Virus record (IMG/VR): IMGVR_UViG_2690316278_000014
Strand: one strand, 5' to 3'
Length of the DNA: 13,245 nucleotides
From: a virus
Taxonomy: Duplodnaviria; Heunggongvirae; Uroviricota; Caudoviricetes
Translations under genes and position numbers: made by a program
The notes under the pieces: generated by a model
What the model was told of the DNA's origin: nothing
What the model saw: the letters and a program-made list of their open reading frames with translations, nothing else
The model's database searches: none
Part shown: positions 1-5,249 of the stretch, piece by piece
Numbering within the stretch: position 1 is the stretch's first letter
Layout: the number at the start of each line of letters is the position of its first letter

Positions 1-293
1 TTATCGATCTATTAAACATTAAGTTAGCCTCATTAAAAAGCGAATTGCAATCACTTACCTTTTGGAAAGTATCGCCAAAAGATGAAGCTATATTCAATAA
101 TTATTTCTTCAGTAATCAAATTGCTTTAGGAACATTGAGGGAAGCGATAAGTTTTGATATAAATGACATTCATGATAGATATCATTACAATGTCAGCTAT
201 GGAAAGTTATTAGTAGATACATTTGATAGTTTAATAGAAGCACATGCAACCTTGAAAAAGGACATGAATAACTTATTCGTTTTCTCTAATTAG
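1..293 (+). CDS. 3' end of an unidentified ORF entering from the left window edge; about 97 C-terminal codons visible; product unknown
   Basis: The frame of the 45..293 ORF stays open back to nt 3 (IDLLNIKLASLKSELQSLTFWKV...), so the TTG at 45 is probably internal. Stop TAG at 291-293. No motif recognised. Confidence 0.3.
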   Translation, partial: IDLLNIKLASLKSELQSLTFWKVSPKDEAIFNNYFFSNQIALGTLREAISFDINDIHDRYHYNVSYGKLLVDTFDSLIEAHATLKKDMNNLFVFSN

Positions 294-471
294 AGTCCAC
301 AACTCCCAATAGACGGTGGGGTATCCTCACCGCTATAACTAACATCTCAACATTAAGATTTATAAGGTCTTCATTAAAGTACTCCCCCTTTCGTACCTCC
401 TATATAAATAGAGGAAGTAATATATATCACCATCGTAGGTGTTAAATTCCATTCTTATCATCTCGTAAACC

Positions 472-511
472 CTATAGTGGGTTAGTAGTTCTAACCCTCA
501 ATCTATAGTGG
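472..511. repeat. Direct repeat CTATAGTGG (472-480 and 503-511) flanking an inverted repeat GGGTTAG-tagtt-CTAACCC (479-497)
   Basis: Read directly in the convergent intergenic region between the + ORF ending at 293 and the - gene ending at 550. No downstream T-tract on either strand, so not a canonical intrinsic terminator. Confidence 0.5.
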
Positions 512-549
512 CATCTAACATTTACCTTACATTCCAAAAAATATTATTC

Positions 550-1982
550 TTAAGTCTTTTTATCTTGCTTAAGTAATGCAATGAGTCTGTGAGAGTTAGG
601 GATTTTATGTTCATTCCCCTCCACATCTAAAATAGTTATATCTTCTAAATGACAAATATCACATTCATTATCTATCGTGACTAAGTCTGAGCTTACCAAT
701 TCAAATTTTTTTCTTTGCTTTTCTTTAATAACAATGCTCTCTTTTGGAGATGAATGGCTCCTAATGCCTTTTTCATAATGGCAAAGCATCCCTTCCAAAA
801 CTGCATCACGCCTACCAACATTGATCACTATCACCTCGATTTTATAAGGTTCCTCATCAAAAGACTCGTAGACGAGGTCAGCTGTTATTTTTAGCCTTGA
901 TCTATCATGCCATGCTGCCCTACCGGAGAAGTATAAGGAAGTACATGCAANNNNNNNNNNNNNNNNNNNNNNNNNNNNNNNNNNNNNNNNNNNNNNNNNN
1001 NNNNNNNNNNNNNNNNNNNNNNNNNNNNNNNNNNNNNNNNNNNNNNNNNNNNNNNNNNNNNNNNNNNNNNNNNNNNNNNNNNNNNNNNNNNNNNNNNNNN
1101 NNNNNNNNNNNNNNNNNNNNNNNNNNNNNNNNNNNNNNNNNNNNNNNNNNNNNNNNNNNNNNNNNNNNNNNNNNNNNNNNNNNNNNNNNNNNNNNNNNNN
1201 NNNNNNNNNNNNNNNNNNNNNNNNNNNNNNNNNNNNNNNNNNNNNNNNNNNNNNNNNNNNNNNNNNNNNNNNNNNNNNNNNNNNNNNNNNNNNNNNNNNN
1301 NNNNNNNNNNNNNNNNNNNNNNNNNNNNNNNNNNNNNNNNNNNNNNNNNNNNNNNNNNNNNNNNNNNNNNNNNNNNNNNNNNNNNNNNNNNNNNNNNNNN
1401 NNNNNNNNNNNNNNNNNNNNNNNNNNNNNNNNNNNNNNNNNNNNNNNNNNNNNNNNNNNNNNNNNNNNNNNNNNNNNNNNNNNNNNNNNNNNNNNAAGCC
1501 TGTCGTGCTTTTGGATCACGCTCGTAGGAGTTTACTGTAACTTGCTTTTTTGCACCCTCAGCGTAGTTTTCAGGTGAGGTAATTTCATCTGGAAATGGAT
1601 TAGGTAAAAAGTCTGCATACCAAACTGTTCCTTCTTTCCGAAGGTAACGTTTTTCAAGTTTTGGAGTGAACCGTTTGATAACAGCTACATCTCTATTCTC
1701 ATCGTTTCGTCCCTGCTCCATATCAAACGTGTAAAGCTCATAACCTTCAGCTATCAATTGAATGTGTTCAATAGCTTGAATATATCCAAGATTTTTTCTT
1801 TCCTTTCCCTCCACAACTTTGGTTTTCCACCGCTCCCTCAGAATGACTGATCTTTCTTGCTCTTTTTGTACATCCCATGCACCAAAGATAACCATTTTCT
1901 TGTCGTGGTTCACAAATGACCAACTCCAAGTCCAGTTACTACAAGTAGCACCATGCGACTGGATGAATTGTTTTCTGTTCAT
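550..1982 (-). CDS. Hypothetical protein, possibly about 477 aa: Trp-rich N-terminal region plus C-terminal HNH-like (His-Me finger) signature. Interior 951-1495 is masked, so this may instead be two adjacent genes (1496..1982 and 550..950)
   Basis: ATG at 1980-1982 preceded by AGAGAGGGA about 5 nt upstream. N-terminal 162 aa (MNRKQFIQSHGATCSNWTWSWSFVNHDKKMVIFGAWDV...) is open to the mask. Below the mask a different frame is open from 950 to the TAA at 550-552 (133 codons) and contains CHYEKG ... SHSSP ... NECDICH ... EGNEHKIPNSH. The frame change across the mask is uninformative because N-run lengths are unreliable. Confidence 0.5.
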
Positions 1983-2354
1983 GGTATCCCTCTCTTAATT
2001 CCCTCTTTGTACACAAAAAATGCCTACTTGATCCAGTACTTTATGTAGCTATCCAATAGCATCATAGTAGTGGAAATGACCAGAGCGAGAGTTGTGGAAC
2101 TGGCGGGGCATGTCGTACTTACCAATTCACTTTAGGTACTTCATTTGCTGTACTAACATCTATCGAGCAAAGCGAGTAGTAACGCCTTGCGGGTTTTCGA
2201 GTACTGGCGAGAAAAACGCAACGTTACTAACCAATACTACGAGGAGTTCACGACGAGTAGTATTCGTGACGCAAGTCACAGTTTCTTGGAATACTGATAG
2301 AGAAAGAAATACATGGAATGAAATGGAATGGATTTCGTATCTCTATACTTAGTT

Positions 2355-2436
2355 GCCGTATTGATGGTAAATAGCGGGTTTCAGGGGCTTTTTTTGCCGT
2401 ATTACGGCATACATCCATGCCGTAATATGCCGTAAT
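2355..2436. repeat. Cluster of five GCCGTA(A/T)T motifs, including a 13-bp palindrome GCCGTAtTACGGC (2396-2408) and a tandem 10-mer ATGCCGTAAT x2 (2417-2436)
   Basis: Copies at 2355-2362, 2396-2403, 2401-2408 (inverted), 2419-2426 and 2429-2436. Lies immediately 3' of the 153-aa gene (stop at 2446-2448) and about 400 bp 5' of the 550..1982 gene. Confidence 0.6.
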
Positions 2437-2445
2437 AAGTTACAA

Positions 2446-2907
2446 TTAACGCAAGCCCTTTAAGTACTCGATCATGTCATCAATAAAGTCACCTTGTTTT
2501 TGTAGTTCCAATAGTTTACCAAACTCTTTATATGTTAGTGTTCTTTGTCCATATACTGGTGCTGGCAGTGCGTTTGGGTGTGCCAACATATACTGCTCTA
2601 TTCGTTTTGCTGCATCCGTGATCGCTGCCCCATAGTACCTGATCATACGTTCTTTTACTTGTTTCTTATTCTGTTGTACTTTAATAGCATTGATAGTATT
2701 GAATAGTAAATCATTCCGTAATTCATCTTCATTACTCAATACTGCAAACACATCATATACACTAATCTTATCTCTCACTTTAAGTTTAGCTACTGAGTCC
2801 TTCATGATGTTCTTGATGTCTTCGCATGGGATATCTTTATATAGCTTGTACTGGCTAATTAGTGCTTTTATGTTTCTGTTATCAAAAGTTGAATAGGTTT
2901 TTGCCAT
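2446..2907 (-). CDS. Hypothetical protein, 153 aa; no recognisable domain
   Basis: ATG at 2905-2907 with AGGA about 9 nt upstream on the - strand; complete ORF with TAA at 2446-2448. Protein begins MAKTYSTFDNRNIKALISQYKLYKD. Confidence 0.55.
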   Translation of the reverse strand: MAKTYSTFDNRNIKALISQYKLYKDIPCEDIKNIMKDSVAKLKVRDKISVYDVFAVLSNEDELRNDLLFNTINAIKVQQNKKQVKERMIRYYGAAITDAAKRIEQYMLAHPNALPAPVYGQRTLTYKEFGKLLELQKQGDFIDDMIEYLKGLR

Positions 2908-3001
2908 GATAAATAATCCTGTATAAATTAATTAATCGTGACCCGTAGTGATTACAGGCCATTTAATAAGTTTGGCTTCATTGCCATTGAGTTTTGAATA
3001 G

Positions 3002-3030
3002 ATGCCAGTACTGGAATACTGGCATTTTTT
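3002..3030 (+). terminator. Terminator-like hairpin ATGCCAGTA-ctggaa-TACTGGCAT followed by T5-6, contains the perfect palindrome CCAGTACTGG; function uncertain (terminator shape only in + orientation, or an operator-like palindrome)
   Basis: 9-bp stem at 3002-3010 / 3017-3025, T-run 3026-3030. Overlaps the stop codon of the HNH gene (3029-3031) and lies about 95 nt upstream of the 153-aa gene start. No convincing + strand gene upstream. Confidence 0.3.
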
Positions 3031-3583
3031 ATGGTTTACGTTGAATGGTTAGGCTTTGTATTCTTTGTCTTTGCTTATTCGTAAGATATGTTGTGTACCA
3101 TTTTGAATAGGTAGTACCTTTGAATAACTTACCTATATTCTGAGGGCAAATATTAATACCAGTTTGATTTAAAAACCATTTAGTGATTGCATATTGAGAT
3201 AATTGTCCTTTAAGGTACTCTCCAACAATCATTAACCATTGCTTTAGAGTAAGCTTTTGAGTACGAGTACCTTTATGCTTTCTATTGGAATTATTAACCT
3301 TCTGAGTTACCCAACGTAAATTTTTTGCTTTGTTATTCATTTTATCGCGGTCGATATGATCTACAGTGTATCTTCCTCCAATGGGTTTAGCACCATTGAA
3401 TAAAGTACAAACCAAAACATGTACATATAGTGATTTGCCATTAATAGAAACTTTTTTGTATCCATTAGATGGGTTTTTCGTAGCTATATACTGTTTTGTT
3501 TTATCATTGTAAACATCGCCATTTTCAGATACGTAGTAATGTTTTGAATTTGGAATTAATCTCCAAGTGATTTTAGGGTTCAT
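3029..3583 (-). CDS. HNH homing-endonuclease-like protein (NUMOD4-type N-terminus plus HNH_3-type core), 184 aa
   Basis: ATG at 3581-3583 with AAGGA about 8 nt upstream. N-terminus WRLIPNSKHYYVSENGDVYN matches the NUMOD4 pattern (Y-x-VS-x-x-G-x-V) and YVHVLVCTLFNGAKPIGGRYTVDHIDRDKMNNKAKNLRWVTQKVN matches the HNH_3 core (HR-L/V ... V-N/D-H-I/K-D ... NN ... NL-x-W-V-T). The basic C-terminal tail is probably DNA-binding. Confidence 0.75.
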   Translation of the reverse strand: MNPKITWRLIPNSKHYYVSENGDVYNDKTKQYIATKNPSNGYKKVSINGKSLYVHVLVCTLFNGAKPIGGRYTVDHIDRDKMNNKAKNLRWVTQKVNNSNRKHKGTRTQKLTLKQWLMIVGEYLKGQLSQYAITKWFLNQTGINICPQNIGKLFKGTTYSKWYTTYLTNKQRQRIQSLTIQRKP

Positions 3584-3637
3584 ATCAAACGTCCTTGTTG
3601 TTATCGCGTCACTCCATGTGATCGCGTCTGCTACTAC

Positions 3638-3946
3638 TTAGAGGCCAGTAGCATTTAGCCTATATTCATCCCTCGCCTTCTCACATACGATTAGCAAACG
3701 GTTTAAACATTCCTTATGTTCATCTTCAGCAGCCAGTACAAACATTACCATTGGTAATCCGTCGATTAGGTAATTTCCATTCCATGTAATAGTACCTAAT
3801 ACTTCTGGATCACCAATTCGTTCATAATGTGCTTCTAATGAACCTTCCTGATACTTCACACAATAGAAATAGTGATAATCCATATCCCCTACTATTGTGT
3901 AATCATCAAAATATTGTACTAAATCAAAGTCATTCTTCATTACCAC
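3638..3946 (-). CDS. Hypothetical protein, 102 aa, overlapping the end of the upstream RHH-like gene; possible partner of a two-gene module
   Basis: Complete ORF (MVMKNDFDLVQYFDDYTIVGDMDYHYFYCVKYQEG...), TAA at 3638-3640. Start ATG at 3944-3946 or 3938-3940, both overlapping the upstream gene, whose stop is at 3930-3932. Confidence 0.5.
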   Translation of the reverse strand: MVMKNDFDLVQYFDDYTIVGDMDYHYFYCVKYQEGSLEAHYERIGDPEVLGTITWNGNYLIDGLPMVMFVLAAEDEHKECLNRLLIVCEKARDEYRLNATGL

Positions 3947-4115
3947 CGCCCTGTAAAATCATGTACTGATTAATTAAGTACTGAACACAGGCTGATAATG
4001 AATCTTTCTGTACCTTCCCACTACTAATTAGCTGGTTAAGTACAAGTACTTGATCGTCATTAAGACGTGCGGTTACTACATGATGTTTGCGTTCCTTTAA
4101 AGTTACTTTTTTCAT
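3930..4115 (-). CDS. Small ribbon-helix-helix-like (CopG/Arc/MobC-type) DNA-binding protein, 61 aa; candidate autoregulator or antitoxin-like component
   Basis: ATG at 4113-4115 with AAGGA about 7 nt upstream. Sequence HVVTARLNDDQVLVLNQLISSGKVQKDSLSACVQYLI has the beta-strand / helix / helix periodicity of RHH proteins. Assignment by pattern only. Confidence 0.5.
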   Translation of the reverse strand: MKKVTLKERKHHVVTARLNDDQVLVLNQLISSGKVQKDSLSACVQYLINQYMILQGGGNEE

Positions 4116-4132
4116 TTCTATATCCTTATAGG

Positions 4133-4152
4133 TGTATTTGTATACTGTATTT
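4133..4152 (-). promoter_or_regulatory. Operator-like element TGTATTT-GTATAC-TGTATTT immediately upstream of the RHH gene ribosome-binding site
   Basis: Two 7-bp direct repeats separated by the palindromic hexamer GTATAC, 18-37 nt upstream of the ATG at 4115. RHH regulators commonly bind such short repeats in their own promoters (inference). Confidence 0.3.
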
Positions 4153-4164
4153 ATAAATCCAAAT

Positions 4165-4192
4165 TAAAAAGATACCTCTCTCGCAAGAGAGG
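4165..4192 (-). terminator. Rho-independent terminator-like hairpin on the - strand (stem CCUCUCU / AGAGAGG, UGCG tetraloop, then UAUCUUUUUAAUUU)
   Basis: 7-bp stem at 4175-4181 / 4186-4192 with a 4-nt loop; on the - strand it is followed by a U-rich tract (4165-4174). Lies about 140 nt downstream of the 4332..5130 gene and about 60 nt upstream of the RHH gene, suggesting separate transcription units. Confidence 0.45.
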
Positions 4193-4331
4193 CAATCTTA
4201 ATTAAAAAGGAAATTTATTGTCGCTATATTATTTATGTTCAAAGCTGGAGCGGAAGGCAAAACGCATTATCGTTCTGATACTATTAGTATAGCACCAAAA
4301 CTTTTAGCGTTTCATTTTTCTTACTACGTAT

Positions 4332-5130
4332 TTATTTATCGATTTGATTTTTAATGGGGAAAGCAATAGTACTAAAATCATAGATAAAAACATGAGCANN
4401 NNNNNNNNNNNNNNNNNNNNNNNNNNNNNNNNNNNNNNNNNNNNNNNNNNNNNNNNNNNNNNNNNNNNNNNNNNNNNNNNNNNNNNNNNNNNNNNNNNNN
4501 NNNNNNNNNNNNNNNNNNNNNNNNNNNNNNNNNNNNNNNNNNNNNNNNNNNNNNNNNNNNNNNNNNNNNNNNNNNNNNNNNNNNNNNNNNNNNNNNNNNN
4601 NNNNNNNNNNNNNNNNNNNNNNNNNNNNNNNNNNNNNNNNNNNNNNNNNNNNNNNNNNNNNNNNNNNNNNNNNNNNNNNNNNNNNNNNNNNNNNNNNNNN
4701 NNNNNNNNNNNNNNNNNNNNNNNNNNNNNNNNNNNNNNNNNNNNNNNNNNNNNNNNNNNNNNNNNNNNNNNNNNNNNNNNNNNNNNNNNNNNNNNNNNNN
4801 NNNNNNNNNNNNNNNNNNNNNNNNNNNNNNNNNNNNNNNNNNNNNNNNNNNNNNNNNNNNNNNNNNNNNNNNNNNNNNNNNNNNNNNNNNNNNNNNNNNN
4901 NNNNNNNNNNNNNNNNNNNNNNNNNNNNNNNNNNNNNNNNNNNNNNNNNNNNNNNNNNNNNNNNNNNNNNNNNNNNNNNNNNNNNNNNNNNNNNNNNNNN
5001 NNNNNNNNNNNNNNNNNNNNNNNNNNNNNNNNNNNNNNNNNNNNNNNNNNNNNNNNNNNNNNNNNNNNTTTTCTTTTTTTGCTTTATTTTCTTTCTTACG
5101 CATTTTGGCAATCCTCTCTTTAGAATTCAT
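4332..5130 (-). CDS. Hypothetical protein with lysine-rich N-terminus (MNSKERIAKMRKKENKAKKE...); interior 4399-5068 masked
   Basis: ATG at 5128-5130 with AGGAG upstream on the - strand. The visible 3' end in the protein-like frame (...AHVFIYDFSTIAFPIKNQIDK) stops at TAA 4332-4334. The 5' and 3' visible parts are in different frames across the N-run, so length and continuity are unverified. Confidence 0.4.
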
Positions 5131-5249
5131 CTCATGGTTTCATCGCTCCTATTCGTTAGTGAATGACGCTATGGTACTGGTTTAACGTTGAAANNNNNNN
5201 NNNNNNNNNNNNNNNNNACGTTGAAAAGTCAAAAAAGTTAATTTTACCC

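What the first reader, a model, noticed from the sequence alone, without database searches (positions are those of the whole stretch)
550..1982. Large unassigned protein with Trp-rich N-terminus and C-terminal HNH-like signature: candidate novel nuclease
The C-terminal 94 codons carry, in the order expected for an HNH / His-Me finger, a C-x-Y-x-x-G element (CHYEKG), an H-x-x-P element (SHSSP), then N-x-C-x-x-C-H (NECDICH) and EGNEH. The visible N-terminal 162 aa (SNWTWSWSFVNHDKKMVIFGAWDV...) resemble nothing I can name. An N-terminal recognition domain fused to a C-terminal HNH is the architecture of modification-dependent restriction and other defence nucleases, so this is my best candidate for an undescribed effector. 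The middle of the gene is masked and it may be two genes.
Basis: inference. Interest (0 to 1): 0.6.

Follow-up and report, generated by a model that had tools for sequence, protein, structure and literature searches.

The report
Two genes: restriction-like nuclease plus membrane protein
The "large protein" is two separate genes: a 247-residue McrA-type HNH nuclease whose real HNH motif is hidden under the mask and whose Trp-rich N-terminal domain is uncatalogued, followed by a small membrane-anchored protein whose "HNH-like signature" is a chance resemblance.

Summary
The quoted strings are in the sequence, but they do not belong to one protein. Three contigs that match the window's flanks almost exactly (1 mismatch in 2903 nt) supply the masked stretch. 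It contains the end of gene 1 (247 aa), an 82-nt spacer, and the start of gene 2 (157 aa).

**Gene 1** (start at 1982, minus strand) has three parts:
- a Trp-rich N-terminal domain of about 130 aa;
- a flexible linker;
- a canonical McrA-type HNH with two CxxC pairs, HVHH and CPNCH. This part lies entirely under the mask.

**Gene 2** (550 to the mask) is a transmembrane helix followed by an Ig-like beta-sandwich.

This is a moderately interesting new variant of a known kind.

The parts
1496..1982 (-). Gene 1, visible part: codons 1-162 of a 247-aa HNH endonuclease. It covers the Trp-rich N-terminal domain (residues ~1-130), the flexible linker (~133-152), and the conserved lead-in to the HNH domain (YERDPKARQA).
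   Evidence: ATG at 1982-1980, preceded by a GAGAGGG Shine-Dalgarno-like sequence. The 162 visible residues are the same as the first 162 of the 247-aa L008 product, which one search shows to be P0291. The AF2 model has pLDDT of about 90 over residues 1-130 and below 50 over 133-152.
1239..1495 (-). Gene 1, masked part: residues 163-247 plus the stop codon, which is the whole McrA-type HNH domain. Coordinates are nominal. They count 257 real bases back from 1495, and the mask is 133 N longer than the real sequence.
   Evidence: L008:7175-7918 gives CIDHHGTSCGCCEFNFEKVYGEHAKGFIHVHHIKPLHTVGEDYEVNPITDMVPLCPNCHAMVHRG.... Pfam HNH matches residues 171-226 at 27.6 bits against a cut-off of 21.4. EcoKMcrA (6ghc) matches at E 3.4e-5 with the single sequence and 1.5e-9 with the family profile. 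PADLOC mREase_IV matches at 4.7e-7.
1024..1238 (-). Intergenic spacer under the mask. The real length is 82 nt. The nominal span is inflated by the over-long mask.
   Evidence: L008 7919-8000. The 412 masked bases add up as 257 + 82 + 73.
550..1023 (-). Gene 2: a 157-aa protein with an N-terminal transmembrane helix and an Ig-like beta-sandwich. Residues 26-157 and the stop codon are visible at 550-948. The first 25 codons lie under the mask, so the upper coordinate is nominal.
1983..2445 (-). A 463-nt non-coding leader and probable promoter region upstream of gene 1. It contains a cluster of TGCCGTAAT direct and inverted repeats at 2388-2444.
   Evidence: The ORF list shows only ORFs of 86 aa or fewer here, none assessed as a gene. 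No Rfam family matches.

Best explanation
The interval holds two co-oriented genes on the minus strand. They are cargo of an integrative island that carries a large serine recombinase and sits next to yeaG. The host is probably Shigella sonnei or E. coli.

**Gene 1 (247 aa)** is a two-domain nuclease.
- Shown: it has a C-terminal McrA-type HNH (beta-beta-alpha-metal finger). The catalytic residues and the zinc-binding residues (CxxC...HVHH...N...CPNCH...H) are intact.
- Shown: it has an N-terminal beta-rich domain of about 130 aa with invariant aromatic residues (W17, W19, W21, W36, W52, W121). No sequence library tested here matches this domain.
- Inferred: the N-domain is the target-sensing module, and the protein acts as a stand-alone, methyltransferase-less (Type IV-like) restriction endonuclease. 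It would bind a feature of foreign DNA, most likely a modified base held in an aromatic pocket as in SRA-like readers, and the HNH would cut nearby.
- Inferred: because it lives in Dam+ Dcm+ enterobacteria, its trigger is probably not G6mATC or C5mCWGG. A phage-type modification such as hydroxymethyl-, glucosyl- or otherwise hypermodified bases is more likely.

**Gene 2 (157 aa)** is not a nuclease. It is a single-pass membrane-anchored Ig-like protein of unknown role. It often lies directly downstream of this HNH gene and is probably co-transcribed with it, but it is dispensable for the HNH family at large.
For: **Two genes.** Near-identical contigs supply the masked sequence, including gene 1's stop codon, an 82-nt spacer, and gene 2's ATG with an upstream GAGAG. 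The exact proteins are found on 484 and 408 contigs.

**HNH of gene 1.**
- Pfam HNH scores above its gathering cut-off.
- The closest solved relatives by sequence are EcoKMcrA and ScoMcrA.
- The Cys and His ligands are nearly invariant across 93 homologues.

**N-domain as a sensor module.**
- The AF2 model is confident.
- A profile search finds 323 clusters at 50% identity.
- In those proteins the domain is joined to three different nuclease types: HNH, HNH_2 or HNH_5 (52 family matches among 150 representatives), NOV_C/DUF3883 (5) and MUG113 (1).
- It also sits next to established modified-base readers: EVE (4), SAD_SRA (1, in P0274, which is N-dom-SRA-HNH_2) and DUF3427 (1).
- These are the modular architectures described for modification-dependent restriction enzymes (PMC6765204, PMC12707154).

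**Context.**
- No methyltransferase is adjacent in any locus read.
- The neighbours are island cargo, including a DpnII/MboI-like gene and genes with mSLOG, DUF4326, DUF488, DuOB or Tlde1 domains.
- The family occurs on 161 enterobacterial plasmids and in no phage record.

Against: - The HNH domain cannot be seen in the window itself. It is inferred from contigs whose flanks are identical.
- The N-domain co-occurs with genuine SRA and EVE domains in some proteins. It may therefore do something other than read a modified base, such as general DNA binding or dimerisation.
- No experiment on any family member was found. Modification dependence and the trigger are inference only.
- The gene 1-gene 2 link is not obligatory. 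Kluyvera has the HNH gene without gene 2. In the E. coli islands a different gene sits upstream of gene 2. Plasmid and Mangrovibacter copies of gene 2 lack an adjacent HNH.
Confidence: 0.62

Rival explanations
1. One reading: one large protein (1982 to 550) whose last 94 codons form an HNH / His-Me finger.
For: The strings CHYEKG, SHSSP, NECDICH and EGNEH exist. The AF2 model of gene 2 ends with strand-strand-helix (E123-133, E138-140, H144-152). This is superficially a beta-beta-alpha arrangement.
Against: - The unmasked sequence has a stop codon, an 82-nt spacer and a new start between the two parts.
- Both proteins are called separately on hundreds of contigs.
- No HNH profile matches gene 2.
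- The motif's Cys and His residues are not conserved.
- Gene 2 has a single CxxC, not the two pairs that bind zinc in McrA-type HNH domains.
Confidence: 0.02
2. Gene 1 is a modification-independent nuclease. The N-domain would be a general or structure-specific nucleic-acid-binding or oligomerisation module. The protein would act as a toxin, an abortive-infection effector, or an anti-plasmid nuclease controlled in some other way.
For: - The N-domain sits alongside genuine SRA and EVE readers in some proteins, which would make a second reader redundant.
- One fusion is to VWA and one to a glycosyltransferase.
Against: - No immunity or antitoxin partner is conserved next to gene 1.
- Tandem sensors are known in Type IV enzymes: ScoMcrA is SBD-SRA-HNH and YenY4I is PUA-DUF3427-DUF3883 (PMC6765204).
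- The conserved residues of the N-domain are aromatic rather than catalytic.
- An unregulated non-specific HNH would be toxic to its host, yet the gene is intact on 484 contigs.
Confidence: 0.2
3. Gene 1 and gene 2 form an obligate two-component system. For example, the membrane-anchored partner could tether, activate or restrain the nuclease at the site of DNA entry.
For: - The two genes lie on the same strand with a spacer of 78-82 nt in S. sonnei/E. coli, Enterobacter ludwigii and Citrobacter koseri.
- In E. hormaechei the stop and start overlap as ATGA.
- By the positive-inside rule, the charged stretch after the TM helix (RAAWHDRSRLK) would place the beta-sandwich in the cytoplasm. This is my inference from the sequence.
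Against: - The HNH family (436 proteins at E 0.001 or better, 161 plasmids) is far more widespread than gene 2 (24 proteins).
- Kluyvera carries a near-identical HNH without gene 2.
- In the E. coli islands gene 2 follows an unrelated 227-aa protein.
- All of the adjacent pairs lie in one island family, so shared ancestry explains the linkage.
Confidence: 0.13
4. Gene 1 serves the mobile element itself, for example as a homing, packaging or transfer-associated HNH, rather than host defence.
For: It is found on islands and conjugative plasmids. A second, homing-type HNH_3/NUMOD4 gene lies in the same island.
Against: - The HNH is of the McrA type with a Cys4 zinc site, and is closest to Type IV enzymes.
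- It is absent from 50,697 phage records.
- No terminase or relaxase partner is conserved next to it.
- Its position within the islands varies.
Confidence: 0.03

Closest known systems
TagI (SRA-HNH Type IV restriction endonuclease; PDB 6GHS)
   Different: - Pfam SAD_SRA does not match gene 1's N-domain, and there is no PDB sequence match outside the HNH.
- TagI cuts Dcm-methylated DNA (PMC12707154). Gene 1 lives stably in enterobacteria that are normally Dcm+, so its specificity is presumably different (my inference).
EcoKMcrA (NEco-HNH; PDB 6GHC)
   Different: The match covers only the linker and the HNH (query 130-233 against chain 175-278). The N-domains are unrelated in sequence.
ScoMcrA (SBD-SRA-HNH) and YenY4I (PUA-like-DUF3427-DUF3883)
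   Same: Relatives of gene 1's N-domain occur in the same multi-sensor layouts. P0274 is N-dom-SRA-HNH_2, P0186 is N-dom-DUF3427-NOV_C/DUF3883, and P0164 is EVE-N-dom-HNH. In these the N-domain occupies the slot that SBD or a PUA-like domain occupies in the characterised enzymes (PMC6765204).
   Different: Gene 1 itself has only the one sensor-like domain. No biochemical data exist for any of these N-domain proteins.
VcaM4I / TspA15I (EVE-HNH)
   Different: hhalign of the N-domain profile against an EVE segment gives a probability of 0.1%. EVE and the N-domain co-occur in single proteins, so they are distinct modules.
For gene 2: helix-anchored Ig-like proteins (archaeal type IV pilins, TRAP-alpha, ApaG-like beta-sandwiches)
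   Different: Identity is only 10-15%. I saw no pilin-type leader (G/A cleavage site) in the sequence, though I ran no test for one. These are generic fold matches and do not establish family membership.

Membership tests
HNH / His-Me finger nucleases (gene 1) | A match to an HNH sequence profile above the curated cut-off | tested here: met
   Pfam PF01844 matches at 27.6 bits against a cut-off of 21.4, residues 171-226. The test used the protein from contig L008, whose flanks are identical to the window. The region is masked in the window itself.
HNH / His-Me finger nucleases (gene 1) | The catalytic His...Asn...His residues plus, for the McrA type, two CxxC pairs that bind zinc | tested here: met
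   The sequence shows C171/C174, H191-V-H193-H194, N208, C217-P-N-C220-H221 and H225. All are invariant or nearly invariant in 93 homologues.
HNH / His-Me finger nucleases (gene 1) | A beta-beta-alpha-metal fold | tested here: met
Type IV (modification-dependent) restriction endonucleases | A sensor domain fused to a nuclease domain, encoded alone without a cognate methyltransferase | tested here: met
   The two-domain architecture is shown. No methyltransferase is adjacent in the window, in plasmids or in the related islands. PADLOC mREase_IV matches at 4.7e-7, but only over the HNH part.
Type IV (modification-dependent) restriction endonucleases | Cleavage or restriction that depends on a DNA modification | not testable with these tools
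   This needs biochemistry or phage assays. No published test of this family was found.
SRA / PUA-superfamily modified-base readers (N-domain of gene 1) | Sequence membership (Pfam SAD_SRA, EVE, ASCH, YTH) | tested here: not met
   No Pfam hit to the N-domain at E up to 1, and none across 150 representatives. hhalign against an SRA segment and an EVE segment gives a probability below 1%.
SRA / PUA-superfamily modified-base readers (N-domain of gene 1) | An SRA-like beta-barrel fold with a base-flipping pocket | tested here: inconclusive

The most novel reading that the evidence does not exclude
The Trp-rich N-terminal domain of about 130 aa is a previously uncatalogued class of DNA-modification reader. 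It would be an aromatic-cage module that evolution has attached to HNH, PD-(D/E)XK (DUF3883) and MUG113 nucleases, and placed beside SRA, EVE and DUF3427 domains. Its specificity would differ from Dam and Dcm methylation, for example a phage hypermodified base. Gene 1 would then be the minimal member of a new family of Type IV restriction enzymes that is widespread on enterobacterial plasmids and islands.
Probability: 0.35. Interest if true: 0.6.

Novelty: new variant of a known kind. Interest (0 to 1): 0.4.

Why it matters
If the N-domain is a reader with a new specificity, it would add a module to the small set of known modified-DNA sensors: SRA, EVE, YTH, ASCH, NEco, SBD, winged helix, DUF3427 and iEndoIII. 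Enzymes built on those sensors have become tools for mapping the epigenome.

It would also identify an uncharacterised defence gene carried by at least 161 plasmids in PLSDB, mostly from Klebsiella, Enterobacter and E. coli, and by a common Shigella sonnei island. That bears on phage therapy and on barriers to plasmid transfer.

There is a methodological point as well. A short Cys/His pattern read by eye produced a false HNH call, while the true HNH sat under the mask.

Tried and rejected
- **E. coli complete genomes.** A megablast of window 1-3000 gave no match. The island is apparently absent from that collection, although yeaG matches at 99%. The source is probably Shigella sonnei.
- **Phage records.** tblastn of the N-terminal part found nothing.
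- **Profile libraries on the visible fragments.** Pfam and PADLOC gave no hit.
- **Frame arithmetic across the mask.** I first took the different frames as proof of two genes. I dropped that argument once the mask proved not to preserve length (545 N for 412 nt). The two-gene result rests on the unmasked contigs instead.
- **YenY4I as a possible relative.** Rejected: it is a protein of about 600 aa with EVE-like, DUF3427 and PD-(D/E)XK domains.
- **END nucleases.** Unrelated: they use an iEndoIII sensor.
- **Other libraries.** Rfam found no family anywhere in the window. PHROGs gave nothing for gene 2 or for the small neighbouring ORFs.
- **Promoter and terminator scan.** Results were at chance level.
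- **hhalign of the N-domain profile** against the SRA segment of P0274 and the EVE segment of P0164 showed no similarity. The templates were single sequences, so this is only a weak negative.
- **Literature searches** for a description of this domain or island found nothing specific.

Full report
**1. What is in the window**

On the minus strand an ATG at 1982 opens a reading frame. It is visible for 162 codons, MNRKQFIQSHGATCSNWTWSWSFVNHDKKMVIFGAWDV...SYERDPKARQA, and then runs into a block of N at 951-1495. On the far side of the mask another minus-strand frame is open from the mask down to a stop codon at 550-552. The observed strings are therefore real.

**2. Recovering the masked sequence**

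The island is absent from 5,426 complete E. coli genomes, although the adjacent yeaG gene is 99% identical to E. coli.

A protein search with the visible 132 residues of the downstream frame found P0121, which is 100% identical. Its encoding contigs are L008 and L009 (Logan assemblies) and L010 (a Shigella sonnei assembly). They match the window's visible flank 1496-4398 with 1 mismatch in 2903 nt, and they match later segments exactly.

In all three contigs the masked stretch is 412 nt long, whereas the window has 545 N. The next long mask disagrees in length too (670 N against 495 nt), and at the 24-N mask the flanking segments even overlap by 9 nt in L008. The masks therefore do not preserve length, and no frame argument can be made across them.

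The real sequence contains three things:
- the last 85 codons and the TGA stop of the upstream gene;
- an 82-nt AT-rich spacer;
- the ATG and first 25 codons of a second gene.

The lengths add up: 257 + 82 + 73 = 412. The exact proteins are on record on 484 contigs (247 aa, named 'HNH endonuclease', E. coli / Shigella sonnei) and on 408 contigs (157 aa, 'hypothetical protein', S. sonnei).

**3. Gene 1: the true HNH is under the mask**

Directly after the last visible residues the protein continues CIDHHGTSCGCCEFNFEKVYGEHAKGFIHVHHIKPLHTVGEDYEVNPITDMVPLCPNCHAMVHRGNEV.... The evidence that this is a McrA-type HNH is as follows.
- Pfam HNH matches residues 171-226 above its gathering score.
- PADLOC's Type IV 'mREase_IV' models match residues 141-236.
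- The only solved relatives by sequence are EcoKMcrA (6GHC; E 3.4e-5 with the single sequence, 1.5e-9 with the family profile) and ScoMcrA (5ZMM). Both match over the linker and HNH only.
- In an alignment of 93 homologues, the two CxxC pairs, HVHH, CPNCH and the final His are invariant or nearly so.
- An AlphaFold2 model has mean pLDDT 83, about 90 over residues 1-130, below 50 over 133-152, and about 85-96 over the HNH.

**4. Gene 1: the N-terminal domain**

Residues 1-130 are beta-rich, with roughly ten strands and two helices. Nearly invariant aromatic residues include N16-W17-x-W19-S-W21-S-F23, F33-G-A-W36-D37, W52 and W121-Y122.

The domain matches nothing by sequence in Pfam, NCBIfam, PADLOC, PHROGs or the PDB.

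The structure comparisons disagree:
- Foldseek does not confirm this. Probabilities are 0.1 or less for MspJI and SRA, and weak PD-(D/E)XK-like matches (Hjc, HincII) compete with them.
- hhalign against an SRA segment and an EVE segment found nothing.

I therefore call the fold 'SRA-like, weakly supported'. It is not a member of the SRA family.

**5. Gene 1: what the domain's fusion partners say**

A profile of the N-domain alone was searched against 1.84 billion representative proteins. It found 323 clusters at E of 1e-3 or better. Among the best 150, Pfam finds the following:

| Partner domain | Members | Note or example |
|---|---|---|
| HNH | 44 | |
| HNH_2 | 5 | |
| HNH_5 | 3 | |
| NOV_C / DUF3883 | 5 | the PD-(D/E)XK domain of the McaZI / YenY4I group |
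| EVE | 4 | P0164, P0191 and P0210 carry EVE, the N-domain and HNH |
| MUG113 | 1 | |
| SAD_SRA | 1 | P0274: N-dom 15-143, SRA 147-292, HNH_2 345-400 |
| DUF3427 | 1 | P0186: N-dom, DUF3427, NOV_C |
| VWA | 1 | |
| Glycosyltransferase | 1 | |

Many of the short hits are probably fragments or stand-alone copies of the domain.

A module that is swapped among three nuclease classes, and that sits beside established modified-base readers, is the pattern described for modification-dependent restriction enzymes (PMC6765204, PMC12707154). P0186 mirrors YenY4I (PUA-like-DUF3427-DUF3883), and P0274 mirrors ScoMcrA (SBD-SRA-HNH).

No methyltransferase lies next to gene 1 in the window, on plasmids, or in related islands. 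The family is on 161 plasmids, mostly from Klebsiella, Enterobacter and E. coli, and in no phage record. Some sources already label relatives '5-methylcytosine-specific restriction protein A'.

**6. Mechanism proposed for gene 1**

- Shown: the protein combines an intact McrA-type HNH with a separate, conserved N-domain, joined by a flexible linker.
- Inferred: the N-domain recognises a feature of incoming DNA, most likely a modified base held by the invariant tryptophans. The HNH then cleaves nearby, as in TagI, EcoKMcrA and VcaM4I.
- Inferred from general knowledge that E. coli and Shigella are normally Dam+ and Dcm+: the trigger is not Dam or Dcm methylation. TagI-like SRA-HNH enzymes cut Dcm-modified DNA and are toxic in Dcm+ cells (PMC6765204, PMC12707154), so this enzyme should differ from them in specificity.

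I put the Type IV-like reading at about 0.6. The main alternative, at about 0.2, is that the N-domain is a modification-independent DNA-binding or oligomerisation module. Its co-occurrence with true SRA and EVE domains leaves room for that reading.

**7. Gene 2: not an HNH**

No profile library matches it.

Conservation in 23 homologues is as follows:
- H82-Y83, E135 and the nearly invariant G136 and H139 are conserved.
- C121 is Gly in every other sequence.
- C124 is mostly Tyr, and H125 is mostly Gln.
- The Pro of SHSSP is not conserved.

A plasmid homologue with 39% identity reads YNY, TEGDIYF and RGKEY at the three sites. With one CxxC and no conserved catalytic residues, the 'signature' is a chance resemblance.

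**8. Relation between the two genes**

Gene 2 lies directly downstream of a gene 1-family HNH in four settings:

| Host | Loci | Spacer |
|---|---|---|
| S. sonnei / E. coli | window and L008-L010 | 82 nt |
| Enterobacter ludwigii | L015 | 78 nt |
| Citrobacter koseri | L018-L020 | 81 nt |
| E. hormaechei | L021, L022 | ATGA overlap |

So co-transcription is likely. The link is not obligatory:
- Kluyvera has a 96%-identical HNH without gene 2.
- In the E. coli islands L011-L014 an unrelated 227-aa membrane protein sits upstream of gene 2, and the HNH gene lies two genes away.
- Mangrovibacter and the plasmid copies of gene 2 have no adjacent HNH.
- The HNH family is far larger than the gene 2 family (436 proteins against 24).

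All the adjacent pairs sit in one family of serine-recombinase islands, so shared ancestry can explain the linkage. I give an obligate two-component system about 0.13.

**9. Context**

The window's left 7.7 kb is an AT-rich island. Its contents, in window order, are:
- a large serine recombinase at 5459-7663 (minus strand, partly masked), which abuts the start of yeaG;
- small ORFs of unknown function;
- a homing-type HNH_3/NUMOD4 gene at 3029-3583 (minus strand);
- a 153-aa ORF;
- gene 1 and gene 2;
- the C-terminus of a convergent 221-aa membrane protein at 3-293.

Related islands carry other conflict-type cargo: a DpnII/MboI-like gene, genes with mSLOG, DUF4326, DUF488 or DuOB domains, and a Tlde1-domain gene.

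**10. Verdict**

The strings are real, but there is no single protein and no real C-terminal HNH.
A reader-plus-HNH nuclease is there, but its HNH is the masked one.
- Gene 1 is already deposited as 'HNH endonuclease'. Its HNH is ordinary. Its N-terminal domain is uncatalogued in every library tested here, and I found no paper describing it.
- I rate this a new variant of a known kind, the modular Type IV-like HNH restriction enzymes, with interest 0.4.

Noticed in passing
window 951-1495, 4399-5068, 5194-5217: The N masks do not preserve length. 545 N stand for 412 real bases and 670 N for 495. At the 24-N mask the flanking segments even overlap by 9 nt in the near-identical contig L008. Reading frames and distances across masks cannot be trusted.
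   Followed up: partly
window 5459-7663 (-), next to yeaG (8191-9600 visible) and yeaH (9745-11670): A large serine recombinase (Resolvase, Recombinase and Zn_ribbon_recom domains; 644 aa in L008) starts about 80 nt from the start of yeaG. It marks one end of an AT-rich integrative island. The same island family, with variable cargo, occurs in E. coli, Kluyvera, Enterobacter, Citrobacter koseri and Mangrovibacter (L005, L011, L015, L018, L023). In the two loci where a chromosomal flank was visible, it was not yeaG.
   Followed up: partly
window 3029-3583 (-): There is a second, unrelated HNH gene in the island. It encodes a 184-aa HNH_3 + NUMOD4 protein of the homing-endonuclease type (Pfam 9e-13; PHROG 59 at 2e-28). 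It is conserved in position across the related islands.
   Followed up: partly
window 2388-2444: A cluster of TGCCGTAAT-type direct repeats and a perfect 12-nt inverted repeat (TATTACGGCATA / TATGCCGTAATA) lies between the 153-aa ORF and the long leader of gene 1. It may be a protein-binding site or a hairpin. It does not look like a canonical terminator, and no Rfam family matches.
   Followed up: no
window 3-293 (+), and 322-393 (-): The C-terminal 93 residues of a convergent 221-aa membrane protein are present here, 58% identical to Kluyvera L005:6862-7527. There is also a short remnant similar to the 85-aa ORF that follows gene 2 in Enterobacter ludwigii (L015:6566-6823).
   Followed up: partly
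L021:3273-4468 (Enterobacter hormaechei): Here the stop codon of the HNH gene and the start codon of gene 2 overlap (ATGA), and the island is reduced to a 378-aa recombinase, the HNH gene, gene 2 and a Tlde1-domain gene. This is the strongest hint that the two genes are expressed as an operon.
   Followed up: partly
P0274, P0164, P0186, P0215, P0216 (representative proteins): The Trp-rich N-domain appears in several multi-domain proteins: N-dom-SRA-HNH_2; EVE-N-dom-HNH; N-dom-DUF3427-DUF3883; N-dom...MUG113; and VWA...N-dom. No Pfam model covers the domain itself, although it defines 323 clusters at 50% identity.
   Followed up: partly
L011:5244-5927 and L011:8488-9279 (E. coli island): In the E. 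coli version of the island, gene 2 is preceded by an unrelated 227-aa protein with a C-terminal transmembrane helix. The gene 1 homologue there is followed by a 263-aa protein with no Pfam hit on record. Neither was studied further.
   Followed up: no
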